From: an uncultured Thermoleophilia bacterium
Lineage (GTDB): Bacteria; Actinomycetota; Thermoleophilia; UBA2241
Assembly: GCA_963739595.1 (NCBI GenBank)
Contig: CAVUBA010000031.1
Location: forward strand, 7,375-71,374
DNA: 64,000 bases
Direction: 5' to 3'
This document shows, one piece after another, positions 765 through 61,040 of this stretch (its first letter is position 1; each line of letters opens with the position of its first letter). Under the pieces are notes generated by a model, which did no database searches, had not been told where the DNA came from, and saw nothing but the letters and a program-made list of their open reading frames with translations. The position numbers and the translations under genes were made by a program.

Positions 765-834
765 ACCGGCTCTAACAGGGTTCGGATTGTACCATACCGA
801 ATACCGAGCAAACCTCAGGACGAAGCGAGCCCTC

Positions 835-3324: not shown

Positions 3325-3387
3325 CCGGGAGGCCCGGGTGACCACGGCGCCGGCGAGCCGTAGCGGCGCGCGGCGCGGGAGAGTCGC

Positions 3388-3937: not shown

Positions 3938-3944
3938 ACGCCGG

Positions 3945-6481: not shown

Positions 6482-6485
6482 GCCG

Positions 6486-7925
6486 ATGAACAAAGCCATG
6501 TCCAGGGTGTTCATCGTCGCGGTCGTGCTCTTCGTCGCGCTGGTCGTCAACCTCACGTGGATCATGGTCGTGCGCGCGCAGTGGTTCCAGGACCGCCCCG
6601 AGAACAAGCGCAGCATCGCCAAGGAGATGAAGATCAAGCGCGGCGACATCGTCGCCTACGACGGATCGGTGATCGCCGGCACGGAGCGCCGCTCCGGCTA
6701 CTACTACCGCGACTACCCCAGCGGGACGTTCGCCCCGCAGCTCATCGGCTACGACTCCCTGCAGTACGGGCGCAGCGGCATCGAGTCGCAGCTCAACGAC
6801 CAGCTCACCGGCCAGGCGAGCGATCTCGGCGTGCAGAACTGGGTGGACAAGCTGCTCGGGCGCCGGCCCACGGGCGCGAACGTCAAGCTCACCCTCGTGC
6901 CGGCGGTGCAGAAGGTCGCCCAGCAGCAGCTTCAGGGCAAGAGGGGCGCGATCGTCGTGCTCGACCCGAAGACGGGCGCGCTCATCGCTTCGGCGTCGGC
7001 GCCGACGTACGATCCGGGCCATCTCGATGATCGCTGGGCGACGCTCAGCAAGGACCCCACGGCGCCGCTGCTCAACCGGCCGACCCAGGGCCTCTACGTG
7101 CCCGGCTCGGCGTTCAAGGTCGTCACCGCCTCGGCGGGGCTCGACGACGGCACGGTCACGCCCGAGACGCAGTTCGTCGACACGGGCACCTACGTGGTCT
7201 TCGGCGGCAAGGTCACCAACTACGGCGGGGAGGTCTACGGCCCCAACAACTTCACCTTCGCGCTCACCGCTTCGATCAACACGACCTTCGCCAAGGTCGG
7301 CAACACGCTCGGGCGCAAACGGCTCATCACGGGCGCGCAGCAGTACGGCTTCTACAAGACGCCGCCGCTGCCGCTGCCGGCCGGCGAGGTCGTGCCCAGC
7401 GGCCGGTACGGCAAGAACGGCCTGCTCTCGCCGGACGCGTTCATGGACCCGCTCGACGTCGCCTGGGCGGCCTGCGGGCAGGAGAAGCTGCTCGCCACGC
7501 CGCTGCAGATGGCGCTCGTGGCCGGCGGCGTGGCCAACGGCGGCCGCGTCATGAAGCCCTACTACACGCAGGAGATCGTCACGCCGGACGGCCAGGTCGT
7601 GAGCAAGGCGCAGCCGGAGCAGTGGCTCGTGGCGACCAAGGCGCTGACCGCGAGCCAGCTGAACACGATGATGCAGAACGTCGTCAACGCGGGCACGGGG
7701 ACGCAGGCCGCGCTGGAAGGCATCCAGGTGGCCGGCAAGACCGGCACGGCGGAGAAGGGCGACGGCACCAACCTCGCCTGGTTCATCGGGTTCGCACCGG
7801 CGAACGACCCGCAGGTGGCTTTCGCCATCGTCATCGAGGACACGCAGTCGACCGGCGGCGAGGCGGCTGCGCCGATCGCCGCCGCGATCATCAAGACGGC
7901 GCTGGCGCAGCCCGCCCTGCCCTGA
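6486..7925 (+). CDS. pbpA: Class B penicillin-binding protein (transpeptidase)
   Basis: N-terminal TM helix and transpeptidase motifs SAFK, SIN and KTGTA. Confidence 0.9.
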   Translation: MNKAMSRVFIVAVVLFVALVVNLTWIMVVRAQWFQDRPENKRSIAKEMKIKRGDIVAYDGSVIAGTERRSGYYYRDYPSGTFAPQLIGYDSLQYGRSGIESQLNDQLTGQASDLGVQNWVDKLLGRRPTGANVKLTLVPAVQKVAQQQLQGKRGAIVVLDPKTGALIASASAPTYDPGHLDDRWATLSKDPTAPLLNRPTQGLYVPGSAFKVVTASAGLDDGTVTPETQFVDTGTYVVFGGKVTNYGGEVYGPNNFTFALTASINTTFAKVGNTLGRKRLITGAQQYGFYKTPPLPLPAGEVVPSGRYGKNGLLSPDAFMDPLDVAWAACGQEKLLATPLQMALVAGGVANGGRVMKPYYTQEIVTPDGQVVSKAQPEQWLVATKALTASQLNTMMQNVVNAGTGTQAALEGIQVAGKTGTAEKGDGTNLAWFIGFAPANDPQVAFAIVIEDTQSTGGEAAAPIAAAIIKTALAQPALP

Positions 7926-7986
7926 TGGGCAGGGACGGTGCGCCCGTGGTCGTAAGCATGAAGCAGAAGGAGAGAGGCAGGCGGAT

Positions 7987-9865
7987 GTGAGCGACGTGTT
8001 CCAGCCAGAACAGGTTGTCGGCGGCCGGTACCGCGTGGTGCGCAAGCTCGGCGGCGGCGGCATGGCCGACGTGTACCTGTGCGAGGACCTCACCCTCGGC
8101 CGCAACGTCGCCATCAAGGTGCTGCTCCAGCGCTATCTCAACGACCCCACCTTCGTGGAGCGCTTCCGCCGCGAGGCCAAGGCGGCCGCGGGGCTCAACC
8201 AGCAGAACCTGGTGAGCATCTACGACTGGGGAGAGGTCGACGGCACGTACTACATCGCCATGGAGTACGTGGAGGGCGAGACGCTCAAGGACCTCATCCG
8301 TCGTCGCGGCCGGCTGAGCGGCAACGAGTCGGTGGCGGTCACGCTGCAACTCCTCGCCGCGGTCGACTTCGCCCATCGCAGCGGCATCGTGCACCGCGAC
8401 ATCAAGCCGCAGAACATCATGATCGACCCCCACGGGACCGCCAAGGTCATGGACTTCGGCATCGCGCGCGCCGGCGACTCCGGGATGACGGAGGCCGGCT
8501 CGATCCTCGGGACCGCCCAGTACCTCGCTCCCGAGCAGGCCAAGGGCTACCCGGTCGACGAGCGCTCCGACCTGTACTCGGTCGGCGTCTGCCTCTACGA
8601 GATGCTCACCGGCACCGTGCCGTTCAAGGGCGACAGCGCCGTCACTGTGGCGCTCAAGCACGTCAACGAGGTGCCGGTGGAGCCGTCCGTGCTGGTGCCG
8701 GGCATGCCGTACGCCCTCAACCAGATCGTGCTCAAGGCGATGGCCAAGGACCCGGCCGACCGCTACCAGTCGGCGGCCGAGTTCGCGCGCGACCTGCGCG
8801 CCGCCAAGGAAGGCGGCCCCATACAGGCGGCCGCCTTCGACGCCGGCGGCGAGCGGACGCGCGTGATGGCCGCGGCCGGCCTGGACGCGGCCGGCACCAC
8901 CTCCGTGCTCGACCAGCCGATGCCGCCGCGGCGCAAGAAGTCGAAGTGGCCGCTCGTGCTCGTGATCATCCTCCTGCTGATCATCGCCGCCGTGGCCGCC
9001 GCACTGTGGTGGACGATGAGCGGCAGCCAGTCCGCCGTGCCCAGCGTGGTCGGCCTGAGCAAGGCCGCAGCCGTCAAGGCTCTGGAGAATGGCGGCTTCA
9101 AGGCCGGCGTGCAGGAGGAGTTCTCCGACCGCGTCGCCTCCGGCTTCGTGAGCCGTCAGGCGCCCACCGGCGGCACCAAGATGCGCGAGGGCGCCACCGT
9201 CGACATCTGGGTGAGCAAGGGGAGCCAGAAGGCCCCTCCGCTGCCCGACTTCAGGGGCTGGACGGCGACGGCCGTGGACGACTGGCTGACCAGGAACGAC
9301 CTGGTGGGCGATCCGCAGACCGGCAAGTCGACGACGGTCGCCTCGGGCCAGGTGTACAAGCAGGATCCGGCGGCGGGCACTGAGGTCAACCGCGGCGACA
9401 CCGTCACCTACTGGGTGAGCAGCGGCAAGCCGCAGGCGACGGTGCCCGACCTGAGCAACCTTTCGCAAGCGGACGCCGAGACGGCGATCGCGGGCGCCGG
9501 GCTCAAGCTCGGGACCGTCACGCCAGACCACGAGCACGACGGTCCCGGCAGGGCTGGTGATCAGCCAGGACCCGACCGCGGGCACGAAGGTCGACAAGGG
9601 CTCGACGGTGAGCTTCGTCGTCTCGACCGGCTCGCCGTCGCCGAGCCCCTCGCCGTCGTCCACGGCGGCCGGCGTCGCCGTGCCCAACGTCTACGGCATG
9701 CAGTCCACGGCCGCGGCGTCGCAGCTCAGCGCGGCCGGGCTCACCGTGGCGTTCCGCCAGAAGAACAACACCGGCCAGGAACCCGGCACGGTGGTCAAGA
9801 TCAAGCCCGACGCCGGCACGGTCGTCCCGGCGGGATCGACGGTGCTGCTCGTCATCGCGTCGTAG
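7987..9865 (+). pseudogene. pknB: PASTA-domain Ser/Thr kinase PknB; frame disrupted near 9525
   Basis: Kinase motifs (HRDIKPQNIMI, DFGIA, APEQ), a TM helix and PASTA repeats. The last PASTA repeats (LVISQDPTAGTKVDKGSTVSFVVS ... VVKIKPDAGTVVPAGSTVLLVIAS) continue in the +1 frame (ORF 9557-9865). Confidence 0.85.
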
Positions 9866-9866
9866 C

Positions 9867-10859
9867 TTACGAAACGTAGACGAACACGTAGACCAGGTAG
9901 GCGAAGTACACAGAGCCGGCGCCGCCGAGCGACCACCAGGTCAGCGTGTGCCTCACTCTCAGCGTCACGTAGAACACCGTCCCGCTGAACAGCGCCAGCA
10001 CGCCAGCCACCAGCGCCGGGGTGGTGAGCTGCCAGGTCGCGAAGATGAGCCCGACCGACACGGGGAAGGTGCTCTGGAACACCATCGCGCCCGTGATGTT
10101 GCCCAGCGCCAGCGTGTCCTTGCGTGAGCGGATCCAGAGCACGGAGTTGAACTTCTCGGGCAGTTCGGTGGCGATCGGCGTGATGAGCAGCGACATGATC
10201 AGCGGCGCGGCACCCAGGGTCTCGCTGAGCACCTGCACCTCCTTCACGAAGATCTCGGCGCCGAGGATGATGCCCAGGGTGGCGACGCCGATCTGCAGGA
10301 AGATCCGGTACGTGTGGGGCATCTCCGGGTCGCGGTGGAAGTACAGCGGCTTGGTGTCCTCGCCGAGGTCGCCCTCCGCGTGGAGCGTCTCCCACACGTA
10401 GTAGCAGTAGAAGATCATCAGGCCGGCGGCGAGGCCGTAGTGCAGCGCGCGCACGTGGATGACCCCGGCGAGCATGGCCAGGGCGTAGGCGATGAGGAAG
10501 TGGCTGAGGTCGCGGCGCATCACGCCCTCGTTGATGGTGACCGCCAGCGGGCGCCGGCCGCGCCAGTGGAAGATCACGACGGCGGCGGCCGTGACCACCA
10601 TGGCGAGGCTGGCCAGCATGAAGGGCGCGCCCAGGATCGCGCCGATCCCGACCTGCTCGGCCGCGGCGCCGCCCGTGAAGACGATGGCGATGATCGGCAC
10701 CAGCGTCTCCGGCAGCGCCGTGCCTACGGCGGCGAGGATGCTGCCTACGGCCCCTTCGCCGAGCTCGTACCGGCGGCCGAACCACTCCACGCCGTTGGTG
10801 AAGAGTTCGGCGGACGCGAGGATGATCGCGAGCGCGAGGATGAGGAGCGCGACGGACAT
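9867..10859 (-). CDS. Sodium/calcium exchanger (CaCA) family membrane protein
   Basis: Two internal repeats carrying alpha-repeat-like motifs (GSILAAVGTALPE and LLITPIATELPEKF); polytopic. Confidence 0.75.
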   Translation of the reverse strand: MSVALLILALAIILASAELFTNGVEWFGRRYELGEGAVGSILAAVGTALPETLVPIIAIVFTGGAAAEQVGIGAILGAPFMLASLAMVVTAAAVVIFHWRGRRPLAVTINEGVMRRDLSHFLIAYALAMLAGVIHVRALHYGLAAGLMIFYCYYVWETLHAEGDLGEDTKPLYFHRDPEMPHTYRIFLQIGVATLGIILGAEIFVKEVQVLSETLGAAPLIMSLLITPIATELPEKFNSVLWIRSRKDTLALGNITGAMVFQSTFPVSVGLIFATWQLTTPALVAGVLALFSGTVFYVTLRVRHTLTWWSLGGAGSVYFAYLVYVFVYVS

Positions 10860-29502: not shown

Positions 29503-30893
29503 TCAGCCGGCGCGCCGGAACAGCGCGACCGTCTCGATGTGGTGCGTGTGCGGGAACATGTCGACCGGCGCCACGACGTCGAGGCGGTACCCGAGCTCCG
29601 CGAGCTCCGCGGCGTTGCCGGCGAGCGTCGTCGGGTTGCACGAGACGTAGACGAAGCGGTCGCCGCCGAGGGCGGCCGCGCGCTGCAGCGCCTTGCGCGC
29701 CAGACCCGCGCGTGGCGGGTCGACGACGACCACGGCGGGCCGGTCCGCGTCGTCCGCACGCGCGGCGTCGAGCACGGGGTGCGGCGGGAAGCGCAGCAGC
29801 GGGCGCACGTCGGCCGCGTAGAACGAGGCGTTCTCCACGCCGTTGAGCTCGGCGTTGACCCGCGGCGGCGTCGATCGCCTCCTCCTGGATCTCGATCGCG
29901 TGGACCTCACGTGAGCCGCGTGCGAGCGGAAGGCTCAGCGAGCCGATGCCGCAGTAGAGGTCGACGGACGGCCGCGCCGGCTCCGGCGCGGCGAAGCGCA
30001 GCGCCGTGGCGTAGAGGACCTCGCACATGGCGCTGTTGGTCTGCAGGAAGGCCGTGGCGGGCACGCGCAGGTCGATGCCGGCGAAGCGCTCGCGCAGGTA
30101 CGGCGGGCCGGCCAGCATGTGCGGGCCGTCGCCGACGGCGGCGTCGGCGCGCGACTCGTTCACCGTGAGCGCGAACGACGTGCAGCCGCTCTCGGCGGTG
30201 ACGCGCGCCGCGAGCTCCGCCTCTTCGGGGAAGCGGGCGGCGACGAACAGGTTGAGCAGCAGGTCGCCGCTGGCGAGCCCCTCGCGCACGACCAGGTGAC
30301 GCAGCAGGCCCCCGTCGCCTTCGCGCGAGTACGGCTCGAGGCCGAGGTCCCGGCACGCCTTCGCGACGGCCAGCCTGGCGCGGTTCATGCGCTCGGACGC
30401 GAGCTCGCAGTCGACGATGTCGACGATCTCCTTGCCAGGAGCCGCGCTTGTGCAGGCCCAGCACCAGCCGGCCGCTCTCATCGGCGCCGAACGAGAACTC
30501 CATCTTGTTGCGGTAGCGCCACGGATCGTCCATGCCGCGGATCGGCTCCAGCTGGTAGTCCTCAAGATGAGCGAGCCGCTGCAGTGAGTCGACCACCTGC
30601 TGCTGCTTGAACTCGAGTTGCGCTTCGTAGGCGAGGGTCTGCCACTCGCAGCCGCCGCACTCCTGCGAGTGGCGGCAGCGCGGGGCGACGCGGCGCGGGG
30701 AGGGGGAGAGGGTCTCGAGCGCCCGCGCCTCCGCGTAGGAGCGCTTGCGTTTGGTGATCCGCGCGCGGACGCGGTCGCCGGGCACGGCGCCGCGCACGAA
30801 GATGACGAACTCATCCAGCCGCGCCACGCCCTGCCCGCCGTAGGCGAGCGTGGTGATGTCGAGGTCGACGGTGTCTCCGGGGCGCGGTGGCAT
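29503..30893 (-). pseudogene. TRAM-domain RNA (uracil-5-)-methyltransferase (RlmD/TrmA family); frame disrupted near 30434 and 29863
   Basis: TRAM domain (GQGVARLDEFVIFVRGAVPGDRV), Fe-S Cys cluster (CRHSQECGGCEWQ), SAM motifs (DLYCGIGSLSL, VVVDPPRAGL) and C-terminal HIETVALF are spread over three frames. Confidence 0.8.
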
Positions 30894-34667: not shown

Positions 34668-36047
34668 TCAGGCGGTGACGTCGCGGACGAGGTCCTCGAA
34701 CGCGTCGACGAAGAGGTCGACGTCGGCGTCGGTGTGGGTGATGGAGAGCGTCCACTCCTCTTCGCGGCCGGGGGCGATGATGAGGCCGCGGTTGATGTTG
34801 TACAGCCACGCCAGGGCGACGAGGTCGGCGTCCTGCTCCTTGATGAACGACTCGTAGTCGGTGATCTTGCCGAGGGCGAAGTTGACGCAGCCCTTGGAGG
34901 AGATGCCGACGGTGTAGCCGGGGAAGTCGTACTTGGCGCAGACGGCGTCGCACTTGGCGATGATCCGGTCGTTGAGGTCGTTGAGGTGCGCGTAGGCGTC
35001 GTCGGTCATGACCTGCTCCCAGCTCGCGCGCGCCGCGGCCATGCTGAGCGGGTTGCCCGAGTAGGTGCCGACCTGGAAGACGGTGCCGTCGTTGACCTTC
35101 TCCATGATGTCCGCGCGGCCGCCGATGGCGCCGCAGGGGGTGCCGCCGGCGAGGGCCTTGCCGAGGCAGATCATGTCGGGGACGATGCCCCAGCGCTCGA
35201 CGGCGCCGCCGCGCGCGGTGCAGATGCCCGTCTTGACCTCGTCGAAGATCAGCACGATGCCGTGCTTCGTGGTGATGTCGCGCACGGCCTGCAGGAACTC
35301 CAGGTCGGGCAGCACGACGCCGAGGTTCATCATGGCGGGTTCCATGATGAGCGCGGCCGGCGGATTGCCCTCGGCGACCATGCGCTCGATGCGCCTGGTC
35401 ATGTTCTCGATGTCGTTGAACGGCACCGGGATGGTGAGGTCCATGGAGCTCTGCGGGATGCCGGCGCCGTAGGAGATCGACTTGTAGTCGTCACGCGGGC
35501 CGATCGCGCCGAAGTCCTTGACGCCGATCGACACCATCACGTAGTCGTGATGGCCGTGATAGGAGCCGAACATCTTGACGATGGGCTCACGGCCGGTGAA
35601 GCCGCGGGCGACGCGGAGGGCGTCCATGGTGGCCTCGGAGCCCGAGTTCACGAAGCGCCACTGCGGGAGCTTGAAGGCGCCGGCGAGGTGCTCGGCCATG
35701 ATGATGGCGTCCTCGGTCGGCAGGCCGAACTGCGTGCCCAGCGGTGCGCGCTTCTGGATGGCCTCGACGATGAGCGGATGGGCGTGGCCCTGGACCATGC
35801 AGCCGTAGCCGTTGTGGAAGTCGACGATCTCCCTGCCCTCGACGCTCCAGATGTGCGGACCCTTGCCGTGCGTGAAGTAGATCGGATACGGGTCACGGGC
35901 GTGATACGTGGAGGCGACGCCCATCGGCATGTGCTTGACGGCGCGCTCGTAGAGCTCGAACGACTTCGGTGTGTCGTTCTCGAGCTTCTTCTCTTCCTTC
36001 TCCATGAGTTCCGCGATGAGCTTGCGGTTCGGTACGCACTCTGCCAT
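34668..36047 (-). CDS. Class III PLP-dependent aminotransferase (glutamate-1-semialdehyde aminomutase-like)
   Basis: NSGSEA, DEVKTG and CLGKALAGG (PLP lysine) motifs. ATG 36047 sits behind AAGGAGC. Confidence 0.8.
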   Translation of the reverse strand: MAECVPNRKLIAELMEKEEKKLENDTPKSFELYERAVKHMPMGVASTYHARDPYPIYFTHGKGPHIWSVEGREIVDFHNGYGCMVQGHAHPLIVEAIQKRAPLGTQFGLPTEDAIIMAEHLAGAFKLPQWRFVNSGSEATMDALRVARGFTGREPIVKMFGSYHGHHDYVMVSIGVKDFGAIGPRDDYKSISYGAGIPQSSMDLTIPVPFNDIENMTRRIERMVAEGNPPAALIMEPAMMNLGVVLPDLEFLQAVRDITTKHGIVLIFDEVKTGICTARGGAVERWGIVPDMICLGKALAGGTPCGAIGGRADIMEKVNDGTVFQVGTYSGNPLSMAAARASWEQVMTDDAYAHLNDLNDRIIAKCDAVCAKYDFPGYTVGISSKGCVNFALGKITDYESFIKEQDADLVALAWLYNINRGLIIAPGREEEWTLSITHTDADVDLFVDAFEDLVRDVTA

Positions 36048-36465
36048 CTGGGTTGCTCCTTCACAGTTGAGCCGCCCTGGCCTGCGGCCGGGGCGGCGAT
36101 ACCGATTGCTGACGGCGCCGCCGCGAGGATCGGCGGGGAGGCGCGGGATGTGGCTCGGTCAGAGCGTGGGCGCGGTCACCTTGGTCTGCGTATCACCCCG
36201 CAATGCTCGTCCCCCCTGAGAGATACGGGAGCCGGTGCTCCCGGGGGCCCATGCCGGGCCGAATGGAGTGCCGGGGCGAGCGGACGCTCGCGCGGAACAG
36301 TATACGGGCTTCCTTGCGGGAAGTGTAGGGTTCGGCAATGAATTGGCCGTTTCGGAAGCCGAATCGGCAACATCGCAGTTCGCGGACGTCCGGGACGGCG
36401 TCCGTCCGGGCGGCCGAGGCGGGCCGCGGCCGGCGCTGCGCCTGGTCCGGCACCCACCAGAAGAT

Positions 36466-36501
36466 GCGAAGGGCGGCCCCCTCGCGGGGGCCGCCCTTCG
36501 C
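36466..36501 (-). terminator. Stem-loop downstream of the multihaem cytochrome gene
   Basis: Perfect 16-bp inverted repeat GCGAAGGGCGGCCCCC / GGGGGCCGCCCTTCGC with a 4-nt loop. A second, smaller hairpin lies at about 36511-36530. Confidence 0.65.
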
Positions 36502-36546
36502 GGCATCAATGCCGAGCCGTAAGGCTCGTCTCAGATGGTCTTGGTC

Positions 36547-38957
36547 TTACTTCACCTTCACTGTCAGCGTCGGGCTGATGCCCTGCAGCATGTTGTGAGC
36601 GAGGTATGCAGGCATCACGACGCGCAGCTTGTAGGTGCCCTTCTTCGTCATCTTGACCTTGTAGTTCGACAGCGAGCCGTCGGCGCGGAGCACCACCCTC
36701 TTCCAGCTGTTCCAGACGTTCTTCTGGTTGCGCTGGATCGTGATGGTGGCGTGCCCGAACGCGATGGCGTCTGCCGGGGCGACGGTGCTGGTGAACGACA
36801 CCGTGGCGCCCTTCTTGACCGACTTCTTGCTGACCTTGAACGTAACGGACCAAGGTGCGGGAGCCGGCTGTGCTTCCACGGACCGGGCCTCGAACAGCGC
36901 CGTGTTCACGATCTGGCGCGAGTAGTCCCAGTTGTGGAGGCCGAAGCTGCCTTCGCTCTCGACGTAGCCGACGTTGGTGAACGCCTTGAGGAAGGATGTT
37001 TCAGCGGTGGTGCGGTCGGCCGCAGCCTTGGCCACGAGGGCCTGCTGGGCGGCGGACTCGTTCGCATAGCCGAGACGCTGGGCAGCCATGTTGAGCTCGT
37101 TGTGGATCTCGGCGATCTTGCGCCTCGGTCCACGACTGACGCTGATCGATGGTGTCCTGCAGCCACAGGGCCTTGTCGCCACCGACCATGTTGCCGACGG
37201 CGGTGCCGTTGGCGTTCTGGACGACCGTGGCGGTGACCGCAAGCGGGCTCGCGGTCGGGTTCGCGGTCGCGAACGTCGTGGACACCGGCACCGGATTCGC
37301 CTTGATGCTGTTGTTGTTGTTGTGGCAGGTGCTGCAGGCCGAGAACGGCATGCCGTCCTGCGTGATGGTGACGGTAGTGGTCGCGACCGCAGTGGCCGAA
37401 CCAGCCGGCGTCGGCGTCGCGGTCGGCGCCGTCGTCGTCGTCGCCATCGGGATCGGCAGTGCATCGACTGCGTCCTGAGGCGTGATGATGGTGAAGGTGT
37501 GGTTACCACCCAGCTGCACGCTGCCGCGGCTGACGCTCGTCGGCGGCATGTGGCACTGGATGCACTTGCCCTTGTGGACGCTCGGGAACGCAGCCACGTC
37601 GATGGCGCCGTAGCCGTCCATCATCTCCTTCATCGGGTGATGGACTTCGGCGCCCGGTGAAGCGGTGGTACCGGCCGGGATCTCGCCGTTGTGGCACTCG
37701 ACGCACAGGTTGCTGCCGTTGGCGACGCTGCCGTTGGCCGGGTCGACGTTGACCTGGTCATCGAACTCGCCGTTCCACGCGCCCTTGGCACTGCCGCTCT
37801 CGTGCGGGGTGTGGCAGCCAACGCAGGTGACGCCGTACTTGACGTCGGCGCTGGTGAAGGGCGTGCCGTCCGGGTTCTCCGGCGTATCGAACTTGCCGGC
37901 CTCCTTCATGATGCGGAAGTCGGCCGAGTGGCACTCGAGGCAGCTCTGCTTGTCGCTCTCGGACGATGAACTGCCAGAAGGCCTGGCTCGTCAGCACGGT
38001 CAGAGCGTTGGCGTGACCCTCGTTGGCCCACTCAGGATACTGAGAGGCGCTGCCGTCGTGGCCAGTCTGCTGCCAGAGGGAGTTGATGACCGACTGTGCG
38101 CCGACAGCGTTCGCGACGGTCGTGTCGGGGAGCTGCCAGTAGGTCTGCAGCTTGCCGAGACCACCGACGGTCGCCGTCGGAGTAGGTGTCCAGCCGGACG
38201 TCGGGATGTTGAGGGTCGTGCTGAGCGATGCGGCCGGATTCCAGCCGGTAGCCGGCGGTGACGCAGGCGCCCCGAGCATCGGGTAGCCGATCGCCATCTG
38301 CGGCTGGATCTGGGTCGTCGCACTCGGGTTCGGCGTGACGGGCGTACCCGGCAGCGGCGTGGTCACCGTGAGATACGGGACCGGCGCCACATCGATCGTG
38401 TCGACCGTGTAGGAGTACCGCGAATGGCAGGCGCCGCAGATGTCCGCATTGGCCATCTCGCCGTACGGGGCGTCTGTGCGCGGTGTCGTTCGGGTCCGCG
38501 CCGTAGATCGCGAGACCGCCTGTCGCATTCGCGCCGTAGTGGCACGAGGAGCAGCCGATGTAGGGCTCGGAGAAGGGCGCGTTACCGGTGGTCTGCTCGA
38601 TCGCCGCAGCTGTCGACGGAGAAGCAGCCCAGCTGACGGCGCCCTTGGTCGACGTCGCCGTCGGCACCGGAGTCACCTTGCGAGGGTCGTAGTTCGAGGT
38701 GTGGCAGCCGGCGCAGACCGAGCCGTAGGGGAGAGACTGGGCAGCCGAAGGACCTTCGGAGTCCTCGCGCATGCTTCGTCTCCGGCCCAGTCGTGGTACG
38801 ACGGCGGGGATGCCGACCTGGTGCCGTTGTGGCATGTCTGGCAAGCCGGAGTCGTCGTGTAGTCGCCGCGATAGCCGTTGAAGGCCATGGCGGGGACCGC
38901 CACCATCAAGAGGAAGGCGGCCACAACGAGCGCAACGATCGTCACGCGTTTGAACAT
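36547..38957 (-). pseudogene. Secreted multihaem c-type cytochrome (nine CXXCH motifs) with C-terminal Ig-like domain; at least five frame disruptions (about 38783, 38767, 38475, 37962, 37120)
   Basis: Signal peptide MFKRVTIVALVVAAFLLMVAVPAMA behind GGAGG. Haem motifs are CQTCH, CAGCH, CSSCH, CGACH, CLECH, CVGCH, CVECH, CIQCH and CSTCH. The pieces lie in ORFs 38673-39347, 38032-38844, 37758-38528, 37001-37909 and 36547-37509, and join into continuous sense sequence (e.g. DWA-ETKHA-EDSEG). Confidence 0.8.
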
Positions 38958-39128
38958 GGTCACCTCCTTGGATGTATGGACGGGATAGTCAGGTCTGTCC
39001 GCTCTCACTGGATCACCTCCCCTCACGAAGCGGATCATGGGTCGAAAACGCCTCGCGAAGCCCGGGCGACGGGAGGCGATGTTCGTGCGTAGCGGCGGGG
39101 TGGGGAGGGAAGGAGACGCGCGCGAACG

Positions 39129-39148
39129 CATGTGACGAATTGCACATG
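39129..39148. promoter_or_regulatory. CRP/FNR-type palindrome upstream of the cytochrome gene
   Basis: CATGTGACGAATTGCACATG has perfect 6-bp arms. The core TGTGA-N6-GCACA has one mismatch to TGTGA-N6-TCACA. It lies about 170-190 nt upstream of ATG 38957. Confidence 0.4.
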
Positions 39149-39262
39149 TCGGTCCGTGTGATGTCGGTGCTCCAGTTCCCCATGATAGCCCGCAGACCGG
39201 CGCACCCTGGGGGGTATGCCGGTCTACCCGTGGAGGTATACAGGATTTGGTGGGTGTTAGCA

Positions 39263-39278
39263 AACATTGAGCAATGTT
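39263..39278. promoter_or_regulatory. Second palindrome in the cytochrome upstream region
   Basis: AACATTG-AG-CAATGTT has perfect 7-bp arms and sits in a locally AT-richer intergenic region. Confidence 0.3.
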
Positions 39279-39429
39279 GCGCAAGCCGCGCCAAAAGCGC
39301 ACAGCGGCGCGGCGGCCCACCACGGATTCTCGAGATTCCCCCCTCACGGTCTGATAGGCCTACCCACTGGAGCGCGAGACTTGACCGTTGTGCGCGTGCC
39401 CTGGAGAGGCGTCGAGCGCGTGAGGCCGG

Positions 39430-40611
39430 TCAGCCGGCCGGGGGTGCGTCGTCCGGGGCGCCGGCGCCGGGCCCCGCAGGGGCCTGCCCGCCGGCGCTCA
39501 CAGCGCCGGTGACGGCCGCGCACCAGCCCTCGAACTGCAGGCGCGGCCGGAAGAACAGCCACGTCTCCTTGATCAGCGGGATCAGCGGGATGGCGATGAG
39601 CATGCCGGTGATGCCGTGGATCTCTCCGCCGGCGAGGATCGCGAAGATCACCACGAGCGGGTGGACGCGGAACCGGCTGCCCATGATCACGGGTACGAGG
39701 ATGTGGCCCTCGACCTCCTGGATGACGACGAAGGTGATGATCACCCAGAGCGCCGACAGGGGGGAGTCGAACACGGCGACCACGCTCGGCGGCACGGCGG
39801 CCAGCACCGGGCCGAGGTACGGGATCGCCTCCATGAGTCCGGCCCAGACGCCGAAGAACAGCGCGTAGCGGCCACCCGACGGGAACGCGCCCACCAGGCT
39901 GAGGATCCACATCGCCACGCCGACGCTGGCGCCCATGACCGTCGACAGGAGCACCTGCGCCTTGACGTAGTCGACCACAGCCGTGCGCGCGTGCCTCACG
40001 TACTCGCGCCCGTCGTCCTCGCTGCCGGTGGGGAAGTGGCGGGCGACGAACGCCCCGATGCGCCGCCCGTCCAGGAGCATGTAGATCGACAGCACGATGA
40101 TGATGATGAAGTAGGTGATCTGGCGCACGACCGTCACGCCCACGTCGACCACGTTGCCGGTGAACTGGGGGATCCGGTCGGCGACGGCCGTCATCGTCTT
40201 GCGGATCTGGGAGGCGACGTCCAGGCCGAGGCCGGCGCGGTCGCTCAGCCGCTGCAGGCGCGCGATCGTCTCGCCGGCCTGGTCGCCCATGCCCGGCAGC
40301 GCGGAGGTCAGGCTGCGCAACTGGTGCACGACCGGTGGCCAGACGAGCGCCGCGACGAGCACCAGGAGTGCGACGAACCCGAGGTAGACGAGAAACACCC
40401 CGGCGTAGCGCGGCAGGTGCACGCGCTCGAGACCCTGGACCAGCGGGTTGAGGATCAGCGCGACCAGCGCCGCGACCAGGAAGATGAAGATCACCTGGCC
40501 GATCGCGCCGAGCACGAACCAGCCGATGATGAGCAGCGCGGGGAGGACGGCGAGCTGCACCCAGCGCGGGATGTAGATGCGTCCTGAAACGTGCTCCGGG
40601 CGGCTTGCCAC
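39430..40611 (-). CDS. AI-2E family (PerM/UPF0118) transporter
   Basis: Polytopic protein with family-typical segments (YFIIIIVLSIYMLLDG, AIPYLGP, FAILAGGEIHGITGMLIAIP). GTG 40611 behind GGAGG is preferred to the ORF-track start at 40734, which would overlap the dnaK promoter. Confidence 0.75.
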   Translation of the reverse strand: MASRPEHVSGRIYIPRWVQLAVLPALLIIGWFVLGAIGQVIFIFLVAALVALILNPLVQGLERVHLPRYAGVFLVYLGFVALLVLVAALVWPPVVHQLRSLTSALPGMGDQAGETIARLQRLSDRAGLGLDVASQIRKTMTAVADRIPQFTGNVVDVGVTVVRQITYFIIIIVLSIYMLLDGRRIGAFVARHFPTGSEDDGREYVRHARTAVVDYVKAQVLLSTVMGASVGVAMWILSLVGAFPSGGRYALFFGVWAGLMEAIPYLGPVLAAVPPSVVAVFDSPLSALWVIITFVVIQEVEGHILVPVIMGSRFRVHPLVVIFAILAGGEIHGITGMLIAIPLIPLIKETWLFFRPRLQFEGWCAAVTGAVSAGGQAPAGPGAGAPDDAPPAG

Positions 40612-45055: not shown

Positions 45056-45470
45056 ATGAGACAGGAACACGACAGCGACAGACCGCTCTTCATGATCTCC
45101 GTGGCCGCGGAGCTCGCGGGGATGCACCCGCAGACGCTGCGCCTGTACGAGCGGCGCGGGCTGGTGCGCCCGCAGCGCACGGCCAAGAACACGCGCCGCT
45201 ACTCGGAGCGCGACGTCGAACGGCTGCAGCGCATCCAGGAGCTCACCGAGCTCGGGACTCAATCTTGCCGGCGTGGAGCGCGTGCTCGCGATGGAGGCGC
45301 AGCTGGATGCCCTGCACCGCCAGATGATGGCGCTCCAGACGCAGCTGGCGGAGGCCGCCGAGGCCATGCGGCGCGAGGTGGAGCGTGTCGAGCGCTCGCA
45401 CCGGATGGACCTGGTGCCGGTGAGCCGCGCCCAGGTCGTCCACATCGGCCGCCGCCGGCGCCACGCCTGA
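45056..45470 (+). pseudogene. hspR: MerR-family heat-shock repressor HspR; frame disrupted near 45257
   Basis: HTH ([44 protein letters not shown]). Continuation [16 protein letters not shown]... lies in the +1 frame (ORF 45273-45470). Position after dnaJ is typical. Confidence 0.8.
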
Positions 45471-56574: not shown

Positions 56575-57958
56575 ATGGAAGGTATCCCGACGCGTATGGG
56601 CGACGGGTCGCTGGTGCGGATGACCCGGGCGCAGATCGAGGCCGACATCCACGCCGGCAGTCGAGGCGGGCGCCAGGCGGGCCAAGGTCGAGCCGCTGGG
56701 CGACGACGAGATCGCGCACCTCGCCGACATCTTCGCGAGCCGCGCCCGGTTCAGCGCGGTCGACATCGGCGACGAGGTCATCCTCACGTCCGACGGCGTC
56801 GGCAGCCAGGACGCCGGCTCGCGCATCACCGACCTGCAGAACTACGAGCAGACGATCTGCACCGACACGGTCGAGCTGTATCACCACGACTACTCGTTCA
56901 AGCCGATCAAGCCGGTCCTGCCGTTCGAGCAGGAGATCATGCGCCAGACGCAGCTGCTGCTCACCATCCCGGTCGCCTACGGCGCGATGCCGGACCTCGG
57001 GCGCTACACCGTGCCCGACGGCCCGGTCCCCAACTGGTCGCAACTGCTGCCGCTGGGCCGCATCGACGAAGCCCGTGCGGCCCAGGAAGAGGCCGTGGAG
57101 GCCGCGGTCGAGGACATCGTCTACGTCGCCGAAGGCATGTACGAGGCCGGCGCCGACGGCATCAACCTGGACACGGCGGGGGCGGCCGGCGACGCCGACT
57201 TCCTGGCCGCCCTCAAGGCCATCGAGCGCATCCGCGCGAGGCATCCGGACTGGAGCATCCAGATCGGCATGGCGAGCGAGTTCGTGCTCGGCATGCACGG
57301 AGGACTCGAGTACGACGGCGTCCGCCTGGCCGGCCTGTGGCCGGCCGCCCAGATGCGACTGGCGGCCAAGGCCGGCGTCTCCATCTTCGGGCCGGCCATC
57401 AACGTCAACACGGGCAAGACGGTGGCCTGGAACGTGGCGCGCACCTGCACCATCGTCAAACCGTGCACGGACGCCGCCACGATCCCCATCCACCTCAACG
57501 GGGGGATGGGCGTGGGCGGCGTCCCCATGCACGCGCTGCCGCCGGTCGACGCCGTCTCGCGCGCCTCGCGCGCGTGCGTCGACGTCCTGCGGCTCGACGG
57601 CTTGTAGATCGGCGCCGGCGACAACCACAGCCAGGGGATCGGCCATGGTGTCGCGTCGGGGATGGGCGGATTGCGGACCGCCGGAGATCTGGTGGCCCGC
57701 GTGCAGATGACCCGACGGATGCGGCTTCCCGAGGCGAAGGCCTACGTGGCGGACAAGCTGGGCGTGAGCCCGGCCGACCTGAGCGACCCCGTGACGATGT
57801 CGGACGTCCGCCGCGAGCGCGGACTCGGGACGATCCCCACGGAGGACACGGCGACGGTCAACGACGCGCTGGCGATCGAGGCCAAGGTCAACATCGCCCG
57901 CGTGCTCGACGTGCCGGTGCGCTCGGTCGAGCGGTTCCGGGCGCTCACGGGCGGCTGA
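56575..57958 (+). CDS. mtbB: Dimethylamine methyltransferase MtbB homolog, copy 1; in-frame TAG at 57605-57607 at the pyrrolysine position; also one frame disruption near 56659
   Basis: Family-wide motifs: RMGDG, YGAMPDLGRY..PDGP, ADGINLDTAGAAGDAD, GMASEFVLGMHG, GKTVAWNVAR, GMGVGGVP, PPVDAVSRAS. Then LDGL-TAG-IGAGD, followed in the same frame (ORF 57662-57958) by LRTAGDLVARVQMTRRMRLPEAKAYVADKLGV. Typed CDS because the TAG is interpreted as recoding. Confidence 0.8.
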
Positions 57959-59303: not shown

Positions 59304-59571
59304 GCGCGGGAGCGCCGCCTGGGGGTCGTCGGGAGGCGGGGTCGGTCGGCCGCGACCGGTCCGCAGCCGGCCCCGGTCTTTGAGCCCTTGAGAGGCTCTG
59401 CGGGCAGGCCGTCCGGCCGGTGGCGCCTCCCGAGCGCGCCGCTGTAGACTGGCGCGCGGAGGCCCGCCGGACAGCGGTCGAATCGCTTCGCTCACAACGT
59501 GGAAGCTCGCGGGCCTCGCACGCTCCCACGGCGCAGGCGGTCGATCCGGATGAAGCACGGAGGTGATGCTG

Positions 59572-60962
59572 TTGGAGCCCAGGATCCCCACTCGCATGGG
59601 TGATGGGTCGCTCGTCGAGATGACCCGCTCCGAGATCAAGGCCGATCTCGAAGAAGGCACCCGGATCGCGGCCAAGAAGGCCAAGGTCGACGTCCTCACG
59701 CAGGACGAGCTCGACCACCTGCTCGACATCTACGCATCGGCCGCGCGCTTCACCGCGGTCGACATCGGCGAAGAGGTCGTGCTCAGCAACGACGGCACCG
59801 GGACCAAGCACATCGGCAACCGCGTGCAGGACCTGCAGAGCTACGAGACGCTGCTCGGCGTCGACATCCCCGAGCTGTGGCAGGCCGACTACTCCTACAA
59901 GGCCGTCAAGACCAACGTGGCCCACGAGGGCCAGAGCATGAAGATCGCGCAGGCGCTGCTCACCAACCCGGTGCAGTACGGCGCCATGCCCGACCTGGGC
60001 CGCTACTCGAAGCCTGACGGCCCCATCCCCAACTGGTCCGAGCTGCTGCCGATGGGCAAGATCGACGAGGCGCGCGACGCCCAGGTCGAGGCCTGCGCGA
60101 TGCTGGTCGAGGACATCAACTTCGTCGCCGACGCCATGGTCGAGGCCGGCGCCGACGGCATCGACATGGACACGACGGGGGCGGCGGGCGACGCCGACTT
60201 CCTCGCCGCCCTCACCGCCTGCCGCATGCTGCGCGAGAAGTACCCGTGGCTGGGCATCGAGATCGGCATGGCGAGCGAGTTCGTCCTCGGCATGCACGGC
60301 CAGCTCGAGTTCGACGGCGAGCGCCTCGCCGGCATGTGGCCCAAGAAGCAGCTCGAGATGGTCACCGCGGCCGGCGCCAGCATCTACGGCCCGGCCGTCA
60401 ACATCAACACCGGCAAGTCGACCGCCTGGAACATCGCCCGGGCGATCACCTTCATCAAGCCGGCCGCCGAGGTCGCCACGATCCCGGTCCACGTCAACGT
60501 GGGCATGGGCGTCGGCGGCGTCCCGACGTGCCTGTTCCCGCCCGCCGACGCGACGATCGCGGGCCAGCAAGGCCTTCGTCGAGATCCTCAAGATCGACGG
60601 CTACTAGGTGGGCACGGGCGACCCTCTCGGCATGGAGGGAGCCCACACGCAGGCGTCCGGCATGGGCGGTATGCGGGCGGCGGGAGATCTCGTCGCTCGG
60701 ATGCAGATGACCAGGCGTATGCGTCTCAAGGAAGCCAAGCAGTACGTGGCCGGCAAGCTCGGCTGCACCACGCGCGACCTTTCCGATCCGGTCGCCATGG
60801 AGACCATCCGGCAGGACCACGGCCTCGGCCTTGCTCAGCATGACCTCCTCCACGCATCCGGCGCTGCCGGGCATGATGGAGGCCAAGTTCAACATCAGCA
60901 AGCTGCTCGACATCCCGATCAACTCGGTCGAGCGGTTCAAGGAGCGCACCTCGGGCTACTGA
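59572..60962 (+). CDS. mtbB: Dimethylamine methyltransferase MtbB homolog, copy 2; in-frame TAG at 60605-60607 at the pyrrolysine position; also frame disruptions near 60556 and 60830
   Basis: Same motif series as copy 1 (roughly two-thirds identical by eye). KIDGY-TAG-VGTGDPLGM closely matches archaeal VDGI-Pyl-IGVGDPLGM. Continuation MRAAGDLVARMQMTRRMRLKEAKQYVAGKLG and the tail MMEAKFNISKLLDIPINSVERF read through to TGA 60960-60962. TTG 59572 lies 8 nt after GGAGG (the ORF track starts at 59563). Confidence 0.8.
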
Positions 60963-61040
60963 CGCAGCTGAGCGGCGCGGGGAGGGGCGGGAGGACCGCC
61001 CCCGCACGCGCCGCCGGGTCGCAGTTCGAGCGTCGCCTTC

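What the first reader, a model, noticed from the sequence alone, without database searches (positions are those of the whole stretch)
36547..38957. Secreted nonahaem c-type cytochrome in an actinobacterial-type genome
After frame repair the gene encodes a protein of about 800 aa. It has a Sec signal peptide, nine CXXCH haem-binding motifs and a typical first-haem context (CQTCH...W.ETKHA). It also has a Thr/Pro/Ala-rich linker and a C-terminal beta-rich Ig-like domain. Large extracytoplasmic multihaem cytochromes are hallmarks of extracellular electron transfer or of respiratory N/S/metal oxidoreductase systems. They are uncommon in Gram-positive high-GC lineages. No cytochrome c maturation genes or partner reductases are adjacent.
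Basis: partly seen in the sequence, partly recalled or inferred. Interest (0 to 1): 0.65.

Follow-up and report, generated by a model that had tools for sequence, protein, structure and literature searches.

The report
OcwA-like nine-haem secreted cytochrome gene
This gene encodes a secreted nine-haem electron-carrying protein, a distant relative of the cell-surface iron reductase OcwA; it sits at a fixed genomic spot in uncultured soil and sediment Thermoleophilia, close relatives are heavily transcribed in nature, and its frame breaks are almost certainly sequencing-consensus errors rather than decay.

Summary
On the minus strand, 38957..36547, a Shine-Dalgarno site and ATG open a gene that reads as an 804-aa protein once seven inserted bases are skipped. 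It has a Sec signal peptide and nine CXXCH motifs; the six-frame translation of the whole 64-kb window has only 11.

The seven frame breaks are all insertions. None is present in an intact 93%-identical metagenome contig or in any public DNA or RNA contig that spans a site. dN/dS against the intact orthologue is 0.29. Four conserved genes elsewhere in the window carry the same kind of +1 insertion. The breaks are therefore almost certainly long-read consensus errors.

The protein belongs with OcwA, the nonahaem surface reductase of Thermincola potens: profile E = 3.5e-32 and Foldseek E = 2e-13 against 6I5B. It keeps the C-terminal helix bundle and one of OcwA's two His-His pockets. It adds an insert, a beta-hairpin module and an Ig-like C-terminal domain.

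The gene lies in conserved synteny next to the dnaK operon in more than 20 Thermoleophilia MAG species. It evolves far faster than its flanks. In four metatranscriptomes it is far better covered than its neighbours.

The most likely role is an extracytoplasmic terminal reductase. I rate it a new variant of a known kind, of moderate interest.

The parts
36547..38957 (-). Whole coding sequence of the nonahaem cytochrome, stop included. It reads as 804 aa after skipping seven inserted stretches.
   Evidence: It is 90-92% aa identical to the intact 807-aa P0001.
38962..38971 (-). Shine-Dalgarno sequence AAGGAGGTGA, 5 nt before the ATG.
   Evidence: Read directly from the sequence.
38883..38957 (-). 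Sec-type signal peptide, 25 aa, with the predicted cut after A-M-A.
   Evidence: Sequence features. A20, P22 and A25 are invariant in 78 homologues. AF2 models residues 4-18 as a helix.
38829..38843 (-). Haem motif 1, CQTCH.
   Evidence: Aligned to OcwA CKTCH.
38766..38819 (-). Cluster of four frame-breaking insertions: AG at 38819-38818, and one base each near 38800, 38781 and 38766. It lies inside the W-x-x-T-K-H distal-ligand segment.
   Evidence: DNA alignment to L029. RNA contigs of X12 and X13 lack all four. The patch is locally hyperdivergent.
38701..38715 (-). Haem motif 2, CAGCH.
38539..38553 (-). Haem motif 3, CSSCH.
38474..38474 (-). Single-base insertion (frame break 5).
   Evidence: Absent from X2, X3, X4, X12, X13, X19 and X20 contigs.
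38424..38438 (-). Haem motif 4, CGACH.
38058..38423 (-). Pro/Thr-rich insert of about 120 aa between haems 4 and 5, much longer than in OcwA. It ends in the invariant WQQxGHDGSAxQYPEW segment.
   Evidence: AF2 confidence here is only moderate, with 10-residue block means of 59-83. No Pfam match.
37964..37964 (-). Single-base insertion (frame break 6).
   Evidence: Absent from X1, X3, X4, X19 and X20 contigs.
37538..37942 (-). Best-conserved core, holding haem motifs 5-8: CLECH at 37942, CVGCH at 37825, CVECH at 37705 and CIQCH-MPPT at 37564.
   Evidence: This is the main HMMER match to OcwA and the main Pfam match.
37607..37651 (-). AEVHHPMKEMMDGYG segment. Its His-His pair aligns with OcwA HH380/381, the distal pocket of OcwA's five-coordinate haem 5.
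   Evidence: HMMER alignment, paper PMC6703420 and conservation of 96% and 83%.
37178..37462 (-). Thr/Pro/Ala-rich module predicted as two long beta-hairpins around haem motif 9 (CSTCH at 37336-37322).
   Evidence: AF2 strands 507-518, 529-539, 561-569 and 577-586, with 10-residue block means of 72-93.
37120..37120 (-). Single-base insertion (frame break 7).
   Evidence: Every spanning contig of X1, X12, X13 and X19 lacks one base here.
36886..37168 (-). C-terminal long-helix bundle of NrfA/OcwA type, with the invariant GSxGxHNxxY.
   Evidence: AF2 helices 602-632, 655-673 and 681-696, pLDDT above 90. Aligned to the OcwA and MccA C-terminal helices. Weak Cytochrom_C552 match.
36550..36855 (-). 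C-terminal Ig-like beta-sandwich domain, present in all 78 aligned homologues and absent from OcwA.

Best explanation
What it is. The locus encodes a functional OcwA-family nonahaem c-type cytochrome of an uncultured Thermoleophilia bacterium. The seven frame breaks are consensus errors of an insertion-prone, probably long-read metagenome, assembly. This part is supported by evidence.

How it works. These steps are inferred:
1. The apoprotein is exported by Sec.
2. Nine haems are attached outside the membrane by the cell's cytochrome c maturation system, which is not in this window.
3. The closely packed haems form an electron wire. Most are probably bis-His, since nine conserved non-motif His are available. 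At least one may be an open or reactive haem below the conserved His-His pair.
4. The protein takes electrons from a membrane quinol-oxidising partner encoded elsewhere. It passes them at or beyond the cell envelope to insoluble or macromolecular acceptors such as Fe(III) minerals or humic quinones. As in OcwA, there may be side activity on small N-oxides.
5. The Ig-like C-terminal domain and the beta-rich additions most likely hold or orient the protein in the envelope.

The gene is transcribed on its own and at a high level. Its sequence turns over and recombines much faster than the flanking housekeeping genes, as expected of an exposed surface protein.
For: Identity:
- Nine CXXCH motifs and a signal peptide.
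- Pfam multihaem families above their gathering scores.
- OcwA (6I5B) is the best solved relative by sequence: phmmer 1.1e-12 and family profile 3.5e-32.
- OcwA is also the best relative by fold: Foldseek E 2.2e-13, TM 0.63 normalised to OcwA, whole chain aligned. The model has mean pLDDT 82.
- The OcwA HH380/381 equivalent, CHMPxT and the helix-bundle GSxGxHN are all conserved.

Intactness:
- All seven breaks are insertions relative to L029, which encodes the intact P0001.
- Where public contigs span the sites, every one lacks the inserted bases.
- dN/dS is 0.29 and the repaired frame has no stop.
- The same +1-insertion signature occurs in conserved genes of the window at about 26707, 29865-29870, 30434 and 45254-45257 (hspR).
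- Syntenic long-read 'MFD' MAG loci are riddled with frame breaks throughout. Most short-read MAG loci (L007, L009, L011, L014, L025, L026) have none; L003 has two and L019 one.

Biology:
- The position between a class-III aminotransferase and the AI-2E permease/dnaK operon is conserved in more than 20 Thermoleophilia MAG species, all with about nine motifs.
- Cytochrome identity to these loci is 33-62%, against roughly 80-99% for most flanking genes.
- Metatranscriptome contig depth over the gene is tens to thousands, against about 0-14 for most neighbours. It drops at both gene ends.
- OcwA is documented as a surface terminal reductase with Fe-oxide, electrode, nitrite and hydroxylamine activity (PMC6703420).
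Against: - There is no functional, localisation or haem-content evidence for this protein. The role is transferred from a homologue that is only about 20% identical.
- One of OcwA's two His-His pockets (HH281/282, at haem 2) is not conserved; Ser/Ala align there.
- No partner cytochrome, quinol dehydrogenase or maturation gene is nearby. In Thermincola, OcwA works with several other multihaem cytochromes.
- There is no LPXTG, lipobox or S-layer-homology signal, so surface retention is unproven.
- The reads of the source assembly could not be examined. The frame breaks are judged artefacts from relatives of about 91-99% identity, not from the same DNA.
- Seven of the roughly thirteen frame breaks I noticed in the window fall in this 2.4-kb gene. 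That enrichment is only partly explained: the 5' cluster lies in a hyperdivergent patch.
- Contig depth is a poor measure of expression, and it pools several alleles.
Confidence: 0.6

Rival explanations
1. The protein is a catalytic extracytoplasmic reductase or detoxifier for small nitrogen or sulfur oxyanions (nitrite, hydroxylamine, NO, sulfite, tetrathionate). In that case it belongs functionally with NrfA, ONR, OTR and MccA rather than with electron-transfer outlets to solids.
For: - It has the same superfamily fold, with the C-terminal helix bundle. NrfA and octahaem nitrite reductase structures are the next cytochrome Foldseek hits, at E about 1e-3.
- The family profile also hits NrfA at 1.6e-5, and P0001 weakly hits MccA.
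- The conserved His-His pair could mark an open catalytic haem, and OcwA itself reduces nitrite and hydroxylamine.
- A stand-alone gene with no conduit partners suits a soluble enzyme.
Against: - There is no CXXCK catalytic motif.
- OcwA is far closer than any NrfA, ONR or MccA by both sequence and fold.
- OcwA's nitrite turnover is very slow, about 1 per minute.
- An Ig-like domain and rapid, recombining sequence turnover are more typical of exposed surface proteins than of periplasmic enzymes.
Confidence: 0.22
2. The gene really is a decayed pseudogene in this particular strain: the seven insertions exist in the DNA.
For: - Seven frame-breaking indels lie in 2.4 kb, while about 3.3 kb of adjacent coding sequence has none.
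- No public contig identical to the window across the break sites was found, so absence in the same strain is not directly shown.
Against: - All seven are insertions and none is a deletion.
- There are no premature stops in the repaired frame, and dN/dS is 0.29.
- Identical +1-insertion lesions occur in hspR and three other conserved genes of the same window, and apparently in both mtbB copies. This points to a technical process.
- Long-read MAGs of relatives show the same genome-wide noise.
- Every spanning DNA or RNA contig of relatives lacks the insertions.
Confidence: 0.08
3. The cytochrome works in the opposite direction or between cells. It takes electrons up from Fe(II), reduced humics, cathodic minerals or a syntrophic partner.
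For: Multihaem wires are reversible in principle. Related actinobacteria (Coriobacteriaceae EMTCatB1) were proposed to take electrons from a cathode through multihaem cytochromes (PMC7943316). The runs that hold the gene come from sediments, wetlands and soils.
Against: No known Fe(II)-oxidation module such as Cyc2 or MtoAB is nearby. The nearest characterised homologue is a reductase. Nothing in the sequence indicates direction.
Confidence: 0.08
4. It is an MtrC/OmcA-type outer-surface decahaem cytochrome.
For: Pfam Mtrc-MtrF_II-IV_dom scores 1.5e-11, above its gathering score, and is precomputed on most homologues.
Against: - Only part of the Pfam model is matched (83-168 of 176, over a CXXCH-rich stretch).
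- The protein has nine haems, not ten.
- No MtrC, MtrF or OmcA structure appears among the 50 best Foldseek matches, whereas OcwA aligns over its whole chain.
- No MtrAB-type porin-cytochrome genes are nearby.
Confidence: 0.02

Closest known systems
OcwA (TherJR_2595), outer cell-wall nonahaem cytochrome of Thermincola potens JR, PDB 6I5B (Costa et al. 2019, PMC6703420)
   Same: - Nine CXXCH motifs in the same order. Motifs 1, 2, 4, 5, 6, 7 and 8 align residue by residue; motif 3 did not align to its counterpart and motif 9 lies outside the HMMER alignment.
- The W-x-E-T-x-H segment after haem 1.
- QYPEW...GHAxAL, the VHHPxKEM His-His pocket (OcwA HH380/381) and CHMPxT.
- The NrfA-like C-terminal helix bundle with GSxGxHN.
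- Best hit by sequence profile (3.5e-32) and by fold (E 2e-13, TM 0.63 normalised to OcwA).
- Sec-exported protein of a bacterium outside the classical diderm metal reducers.
   Different: - Only about 20% identical, and in a different phylum (Actinomycetota, class Thermoleophilia, against Bacillota).
- About 280 residues longer: an insert of roughly 120 aa between haems 4 and 5, a double beta-hairpin module around haem 9 and an extra Ig-like C-terminal domain.
- OcwA's first His-His pocket (HH281/282, haem 2) is replaced by Ser/Ala, with an invariant His four to five residues upstream.
- Nine conserved non-motif His could make all the haems six-coordinate.
- It is encoded alone in a housekeeping neighbourhood, not beside other multihaem cytochromes.
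- Mesophilic soil, sediment and wetland habitats.
PDB 6QVM 'multiheme cytochrome cf'. From memory this is OmhA, the surface multihaem cytochrome of Carboxydothermus ferrireducens; I did not check that here.
   Same: It is the second-best solved relative (phmmer 1.1e-10, profile 3e-16). It shares the haem 5-8 core CLECHS...GITCVxCHxPH...LCxECH...HHPxKE...CxxCHMP.
   Different: The match is limited to about 140 residues. The architecture of that 681-residue chain is otherwise different, and it is not among the 50 best fold matches.
NrfA pentahaem nitrite reductase and its octahaem relatives (ONR, MccA)
   Same: Shared superfamily fold and C-terminal long helices. Matches are weak but consistent: profile 1.6e-5 to NrfA, Foldseek about 1e-3, and P0001 to MccA at 0.016 over the helix.
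   Different: There is no CXXCK catalytic haem and the protein has nine haems. The similarity is far weaker than to OcwA. It also has an added Ig-like domain.
Multihaem cytochromes already reported in Actinomycetota: OcwA homologues in Anaerosomatales (Coriobacteriia; PMC9686372) and 'outer surface MHCs' counted in lake Thermoleophilia MAGs (bioRxiv 10.1101/2022.03.26.485925)
   Same: They show that OcwA-type and other multihaem cytochromes occur in this phylum, and that Thermoleophilia MAGs carry candidate electron-transfer cytochromes.
   Different: Those reports are gene counts or BLAST mentions. In the searchable literature I found none that describes this family's architecture, fixed synteny, hypervariability or high transcription.

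Membership tests
c-type multihaem cytochrome (general) | Several CXXCH haem-attachment motifs in an exported protein. | tested here: met
   Nine CXXCH and a Sec signal peptide. Three Pfam multihaem models score above their gathering scores. All nine motifs are invariant in 78 homologues.
c-type multihaem cytochrome (general) | Covalent haem actually attached, with a maturation system present. | not testable with these tools
   I recognised no ResB, ResC or CcdA-like gene in the window, mostly by eye. The rest of the genome is not available. This needs haem staining or mass spectrometry.
OcwA family (nonahaem, NrfA-superfamily surface cytochrome) | Significant sequence similarity to OcwA along the whole chain. 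| tested here: met
   phmmer 1.1e-12 with six collinear stretches. Family profile 3.5e-32, 114.9 bits.
OcwA family (nonahaem, NrfA-superfamily surface cytochrome) | Nine haem motifs in the OcwA order. | tested here: met
   Nine motifs are present. Motifs 1, 2, 4, 5, 6, 7 and 8 align to OcwA's. Motif 3 did not align to its counterpart. Motif 9 is present in the corresponding position before the helix bundle but lies outside the HMMER alignment.
OcwA family (nonahaem, NrfA-superfamily surface cytochrome) | Globular haem domain plus C-terminal three-helix bundle. | tested here: met
   The AF2 model (pLDDT 82, pTM 0.75) has helices 602-632, 655-673 and 681-696. Foldseek's top hit is 6I5B, E 2.2e-13, TM 0.63 normalised to OcwA, about 717 aligned columns. 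This rests on a predicted model without haems.
OcwA family (nonahaem, NrfA-superfamily surface cytochrome) | His-His motif over five-coordinate haem 5 (HH380/381). | tested here: met
   It aligns to VHHP (P0001 H444/H445), conserved in 75 and 65 of 78 homologues. The coordination state itself was not tested.
OcwA family (nonahaem, NrfA-superfamily surface cytochrome) | His-His motif over five-coordinate haem 2 (HH281/282). | tested here: not met
   The aligned residues are Ser/Ala (GHDGSAxQYPEW against KHAKNSHHLQYPEW). An invariant His lies four to five residues upstream.
OcwA family (nonahaem, NrfA-superfamily surface cytochrome) | His-Met coordination of haem 9. | not testable with these tools
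   Invariant or near-invariant Met475 and Met541 are candidates. No coordinates with haem are available.
OcwA family (nonahaem, NrfA-superfamily surface cytochrome) | Cell-surface location and reduction of Fe(III) oxides or electrodes. | not testable with these tools
   Only a signal peptide and an Ig-like domain are seen. This needs an experiment.
NrfA cytochrome c nitrite reductase | CXXCK catalytic haem motif and pentahaem core. | tested here: not met
   There is no C..CK in the gene. NCBIfam NrfB scores 16 bits against a cutoff of 184. Pfam Cytochrom_C552 scores E 0.018, below threshold.
MtrC/OmcA/MtrF decahaem outer-surface cytochromes | Ten haems in a staggered cross with two beta-barrel domains, and an MtrAB partner. 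| tested here: not met
   The protein has nine motifs. Only a partial PF22113 match is seen. No MtrC-type structure is among the 50 best fold hits, and no partner genes are nearby.
Pseudogene | Frame-disrupting lesions that exist in the organism's DNA, together with relaxed selection. | tested here: inconclusive
   The lesions are present in the window. They are absent from every spanning relative contig. dN/dS is 0.29, and the same lesion type occurs in conserved genes. The source reads are not available.

The most novel reading that the evidence does not exclude
Abundant, uncultured wetland, soil and sediment Thermoleophilia may use this single, very highly expressed OcwA-like cytochrome as their main respiratory outlet to Fe(III) minerals or humic substances. 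The same window carries pyrrolysine-type dimethylamine methyltransferase genes, so methylated-amine oxidation could be coupled to extracellular electron transfer. The protein would be exposed enough to be under diversifying selection and allele exchange by recombination, which would also explain why consensus assemblers fail at this locus. That would make an unrecognised actinobacterial class a significant player in extracellular electron transfer, with an envelope solution different from Thermincola's multi-cytochrome relay.
Probability: 0.18. Interest if true: 0.65.

Novelty: new variant of a known kind. Interest (0 to 1): 0.4.

Why it matters
If the inferred role is right, a lineage of Thermoleophilia that is common in soils, sediments and thawing wetlands carries, at a fixed chromosomal site, a strongly transcribed nine-haem reductase. 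That would add an actinobacterial class to the organisms that move electrons to iron minerals or humic matter, processes that compete with methanogenesis.

The family is also a natural experiment on the OcwA scaffold. One of the two putative active-site pockets is kept and the other is lost, and three modules are added.

There is a practical point too. The case shows how long-read metagenome consensus errors can pile up in a fast-evolving gene and mimic a pseudogene.

Tried and rejected
- Homopolymer-type errors as the cause of the frame breaks. The inserted bases are not in homopolymer runs.
- A cytochrome-specific break pattern across long-read MAGs. I rejected this as the main explanation because those MAGs have breaks all over their flanks. 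Only about a twofold excess in the cytochrome remains, by my rough tally.
- Finding the source reads. The best run holds only 35% of the words, and its near-identical contigs stop short of the 5' cluster.
- A haem-biosynthesis link through the neighbouring aminotransferase. It is HemL-like but scores below both NCBIfam cut-offs (352 against 398, 348 against 527), so I do not claim it.
- Promoter and terminator consensus scans of 36000-39500 found nothing.
- Rfam found no RNA element in the two ~0.5-kb spacers beside the gene.
- Pfam on the haem 4-5 insert alone found nothing.
- The tRNA between the two mtbB copies as tRNA-Pyl. It is tRNA-Thr(TGT).
- Literature searches for this family in Thermoleophilia or RBG-16-64-13 found only passing mentions.
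- I could not get model coordinates, so distal haem ligands could not be assigned geometrically.
Full report
**Observation**

The six-frame ORF list shows no single ORF across 36547-38957. It shows a chain of overlapping minus-strand ORFs that together carry cytochrome-like sequence. Three-frame translation lets a continuous protein be read by hopping between frames.

- The gene starts at the ATG at 38957, behind AAGGAGGTGA.
- It ends at the TAA at 36549-36547.
- The stitched product is 804 aa with nine CXXCH motifs.
- The whole window, in all six frames, holds only 11 CXXCH. Nine are here and two are in the DnaJ zinc finger. The cluster cannot be chance.
- The N-terminus, MFKRVTIVALVVAAFLLMVAVPAMA|FNGY, has the three regions of a Sec signal peptide and is conserved in homologues.
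- Pfam gives Cytochrome_C7 (1.4e-14), MtrC/MtrF domains II/IV (1.5e-11) and Paired_CXXCH_1 (1.2e-10), all above their gathering scores. It also gives a weak Cytochrom_C552 match on the C-terminal helices.

**Are the frame breaks real?**

An intact 807-aa homologue, P0001, is 90% identical. Its contig, L029, has the same gene order and aligns to the window at 93% nucleotide identity over 7.35 kb.

That alignment places seven frame-breaking differences in the coding sequence. All are insertions in the window: AG at 38819, and one base each at about 38800, 38781, 38766, 38474, 37964 and 37120. There are also three in-frame indels. The four flanking coding sequences, about 3.3 kb in all, have none (the protein-to-DNA alignment agrees).

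After the inserted bases are removed, the repaired frame has no stop. dN/dS against L029 is 0.29, with dS 0.15. That lies within the range of the neighbouring genes, 0.05-0.37.

Public contigs were laid on the gene.
- DNA contigs of runs X1-X4 lack the base at 37965 and at 38474.
- Metatranscriptome contigs of X12 and X13 lack all four 5' insertions and 38474. Those of X19 and X20 lack the base at 37957-37965 and at 38474.
- Every contig that spans 37120-37122 lacks one base.
- No spanning contig shares any of the insertions.

The window carries the same lesion type elsewhere. Single-base insertions relative to all syntenic relatives occur at about 26707, 29865-29870, 30434 and 45254-45257, the last in hspR. 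Both mtbB-like genes also appear to be frame-broken.

The syntenic loci from long-read 'MFD' MAGs carry from three to twenty well-supported frame breaks each, spread over housekeeping genes. Most short-read MAG loci have none; L003 has two and L019 one.

My conclusion is that these are consensus errors of an insertion-prone assembly. I put this at about 0.9 and a true pseudogene at about 0.08.

One point is not fully explained. About half of the frame breaks I noticed in the window fall in this one gene. The 5' cluster lies in a locally hyperdivergent patch, with 8-10 mismatches per 48 nt against a gene mean of 3.3. Several alleles of 85-99% identity co-occur in single samples. Mis-polishing over mixed alleles is therefore my working explanation, but it is untested.

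**What the protein is**

Against all PDB sequences, P0001 hits 6I5B at 1.1e-12 in six collinear stretches. It then hits 6QVM at 1.1e-10 and, weakly, MccA. Foldseek labels 6I5B as OcwA.

A profile of 78 homologues raises the OcwA match to 3.5e-32 and brings in NrfA at about 1e-5.

An AlphaFold2 model built on that alignment has mean pLDDT 82 and pTM 0.75. Its best Foldseek match in the PDB is OcwA, at E 2.2e-13 and TM 0.63 normalised to OcwA, with the whole chain aligned. NrfA and octahaem nitrite reductases follow at about 1e-3, and Ig-type domains match the C-terminus.

The OcwA paper describes nine haems and a C-terminal three-helix bundle. Haems 1, 3, 4, 6, 7 and 8 are bis-His. Haem 9 is His-Met. 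Haems 2 and 5 are five-coordinate, below the His-His motifs HH281/282 and HH380/381 (PMC6703420).

In the alignments, HH380/381 corresponds to the conserved VHHP of this family (96% and 83%). HH281/282 aligns to Ser/Ala, with an invariant His a few residues upstream.

The family conserves nine non-motif His (61, 166, 305, 320, 390, 444, 466, 491 and 679 in P0001) and Met475 and Met541.

Relative to OcwA it adds three modules:
- a Pro/Thr-rich insert of about 120 aa between haems 4 and 5, modelled with only moderate confidence;
- an Ig-like C-terminal domain, present in all 78 homologues.

It is not NrfA, because it has no CXXCK. It is not MtrC-like, because it has nine haems, no MtrC structure appears among the fold hits and no MtrAB genes are nearby.

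**Context and distribution**

A scan of one genome per species found 28 loci. Nearly all are labelled Thermoleophilia MAGs from soils, sediments and lakes.

The neighbourhood is conserved. On one side lie YjbQ, PHP_C, PatA_N and a class-III aminotransferase. On the other lie an AI-2E permease in some loci, then dnaK, hsp20, dnaJ, hspR and clpB.

Nine motifs are found in almost every locus, and L019 and L021 have tandem duplicates. Two contigs labelled 'Deltaproteobacteria MAG248' have Thermoleophilia-like flanks, with DnaK 95% identical to the window's, so they are probably mis-binned.

The cytochrome is by far the fastest-evolving gene of the neighbourhood. Its identity to these loci is 33-62%, against roughly 80-99% for most flanking genes.

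The locus is also mosaic. The window's aminotransferase is 98% identical to L012's but 88% to L029's. The cytochrome is 92% identical to L029's but 62% to L012's. This implies recombination between the two genes.

An exhaustive search of 1.84 billion cluster representatives finds only 263 related clusters, 73 of them at E of 1e-30 or better. Few are full length, so the family is compact.

No other multihaem gene lies in the window or in the 10-kb flanks of relatives. I recognised no cytochrome c maturation gene in the window, though most ORFs were judged by eye.

**Expression**

Four metatranscriptomes from two studies (X12 and X13 labelled ice metagenome, X19 and X20 soil) hold many contigs of at least 90% identity to the gene. 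At the 85% threshold X12 has 44 contigs at 99% identity or better.

Contig depth over the gene is tens to thousands. It is about 0-14 over most neighbours and falls at both gene ends, which fits a separate, strongly expressed transcript. In the two soil runs the gene's depth exceeds that of the start of dnaK.

Contig depth is only a rough measure and pools several alleles.

**Mechanism**

- Supported by evidence: an exported, nine-motif, OcwA-fold protein that is under purifying selection and is transcribed.
- Inferred: haem loading by a system II-type machinery encoded elsewhere; electron input from a membrane quinol oxidase; output to extracellular or envelope-level acceptors as in OcwA; envelope retention or orientation by the Ig-like domain; possible small-molecule reactivity at the haem under the His-His pair.
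- Main rival: a dedicated N- or S-oxyanion reductase.

**Novelty**

OcwA-type and other multihaem cytochromes have been noted in Actinomycetota. Examples are Anaerosomatales (PMC9686372), a cathodic Coriobacteriaceae strain (PMC7943316) and counts of 'outer surface MHCs' in lake Thermoleophilia MAGs.

I found no description of this family's architecture, fixed synteny, hypervariability or expression.

I class it as a new variant of a known kind, of moderate interest.

Noticed in passing
window 56590-57958 and 59563-61000 (+); Rfam hits at 57605-57704 and 60605-60704: There are two MtbB-like (dimethylamine methyltransferase) genes. The first has an in-frame TAG at 57605-57607 (...LRLDGL*IGAGDNH...). 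Each copy carries an Rfam PYLIS_2 pyrrolysine-insertion element above its gathering score (42 and 68 bits), and in the first copy the element begins at the TAG. No pylTSBCD genes are in the window, and the tRNA at 59228 is Thr(TGT). Pyl-encoding mtbB and mttB genes expressed by Actinobacteriota MAGs of Stordalen Mire have been reported (PMC10805028), so this is probably known.
   Followed up: partly
window ~26707, ~29865-29870, ~30434, ~45254-45257; also ~56650 and ~60590: Conserved genes carry single-base insertions relative to all syntenic relatives. They are a glycosyltransferase/PHP gene, an RNA methyltransferase-like gene (twice) and hspR. Both mtbB copies also appear frame-broken. The signature is the same as in the cytochrome. 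The window comes from an insertion-prone assembly, so any 'pseudogene' call in it is suspect.
   Followed up: partly
L001, L004, L006, L008, L012, L013, L016, L022, L023, L024 (long-read 'MFD' MAG contigs): These public MAG contigs carry 3-20 frame breaks per roughly 22 kb, each supported by at least three other loci and spread across housekeeping genes. Most short-read MAG contigs of the same lineage carry none.
   Followed up: partly
window 34668-38957 compared with L012 and L029: The ancestry is mosaic. The aminotransferase is 98% aa identical to L012's and 88% to L029's. The adjacent cytochrome is 92% identical to L029's and 62% to L012's. A recombination break point therefore lies in or near the 0.5-kb spacer at 36048-36546.
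   Followed up: partly
L019 3351-6555 and L021 10040-13123: Two relatives carry tandem duplicates of the nonahaem cytochrome gene.
   Followed up: no
L009 and L027 (contigs labelled 'Deltaproteobacteria bacterium MAG248'); L028 ('Rubrivivax'): The MAG248 contigs that carry the cytochrome and dnaK have Thermoleophilia-like flanks: DnaK is 95% and the aminotransferase 88% identical to the window's. The taxonomic label is probably a binning error.
   Followed up: no
window 34668-36047 (-): The gene directly downstream of the cytochrome is a HemL-like class-III aminotransferase. Its best NCBIfam models are glutamate-1-semialdehyde aminomutase, but it scores below both cut-offs. After the cytochrome it is the best-covered gene of the neighbourhood in metatranscriptome X12. 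A link to haem supply is only a lead.
   Followed up: partly
window 36547-38957 compared with its neighbours: Third-position GC of the longest single-frame piece of the cytochrome (37001-37909) is about 0.84, against 0.93-0.97 for the neighbouring genes. The cause is unexplained. It may reflect allele exchange or the Thr/Asn-rich composition.
   Followed up: no
window 787-9879 (+): The start of the window looks like the conserved actinobacterial cluster of Ser/Thr kinase, FHA protein, PP2C phosphatase, FtsW/RodA, PBP and PASTA kinase. TopA, Tmk and an inositol-phosphate synthase region lie further on. All were recognised by eye from translations only.
   Followed up: no
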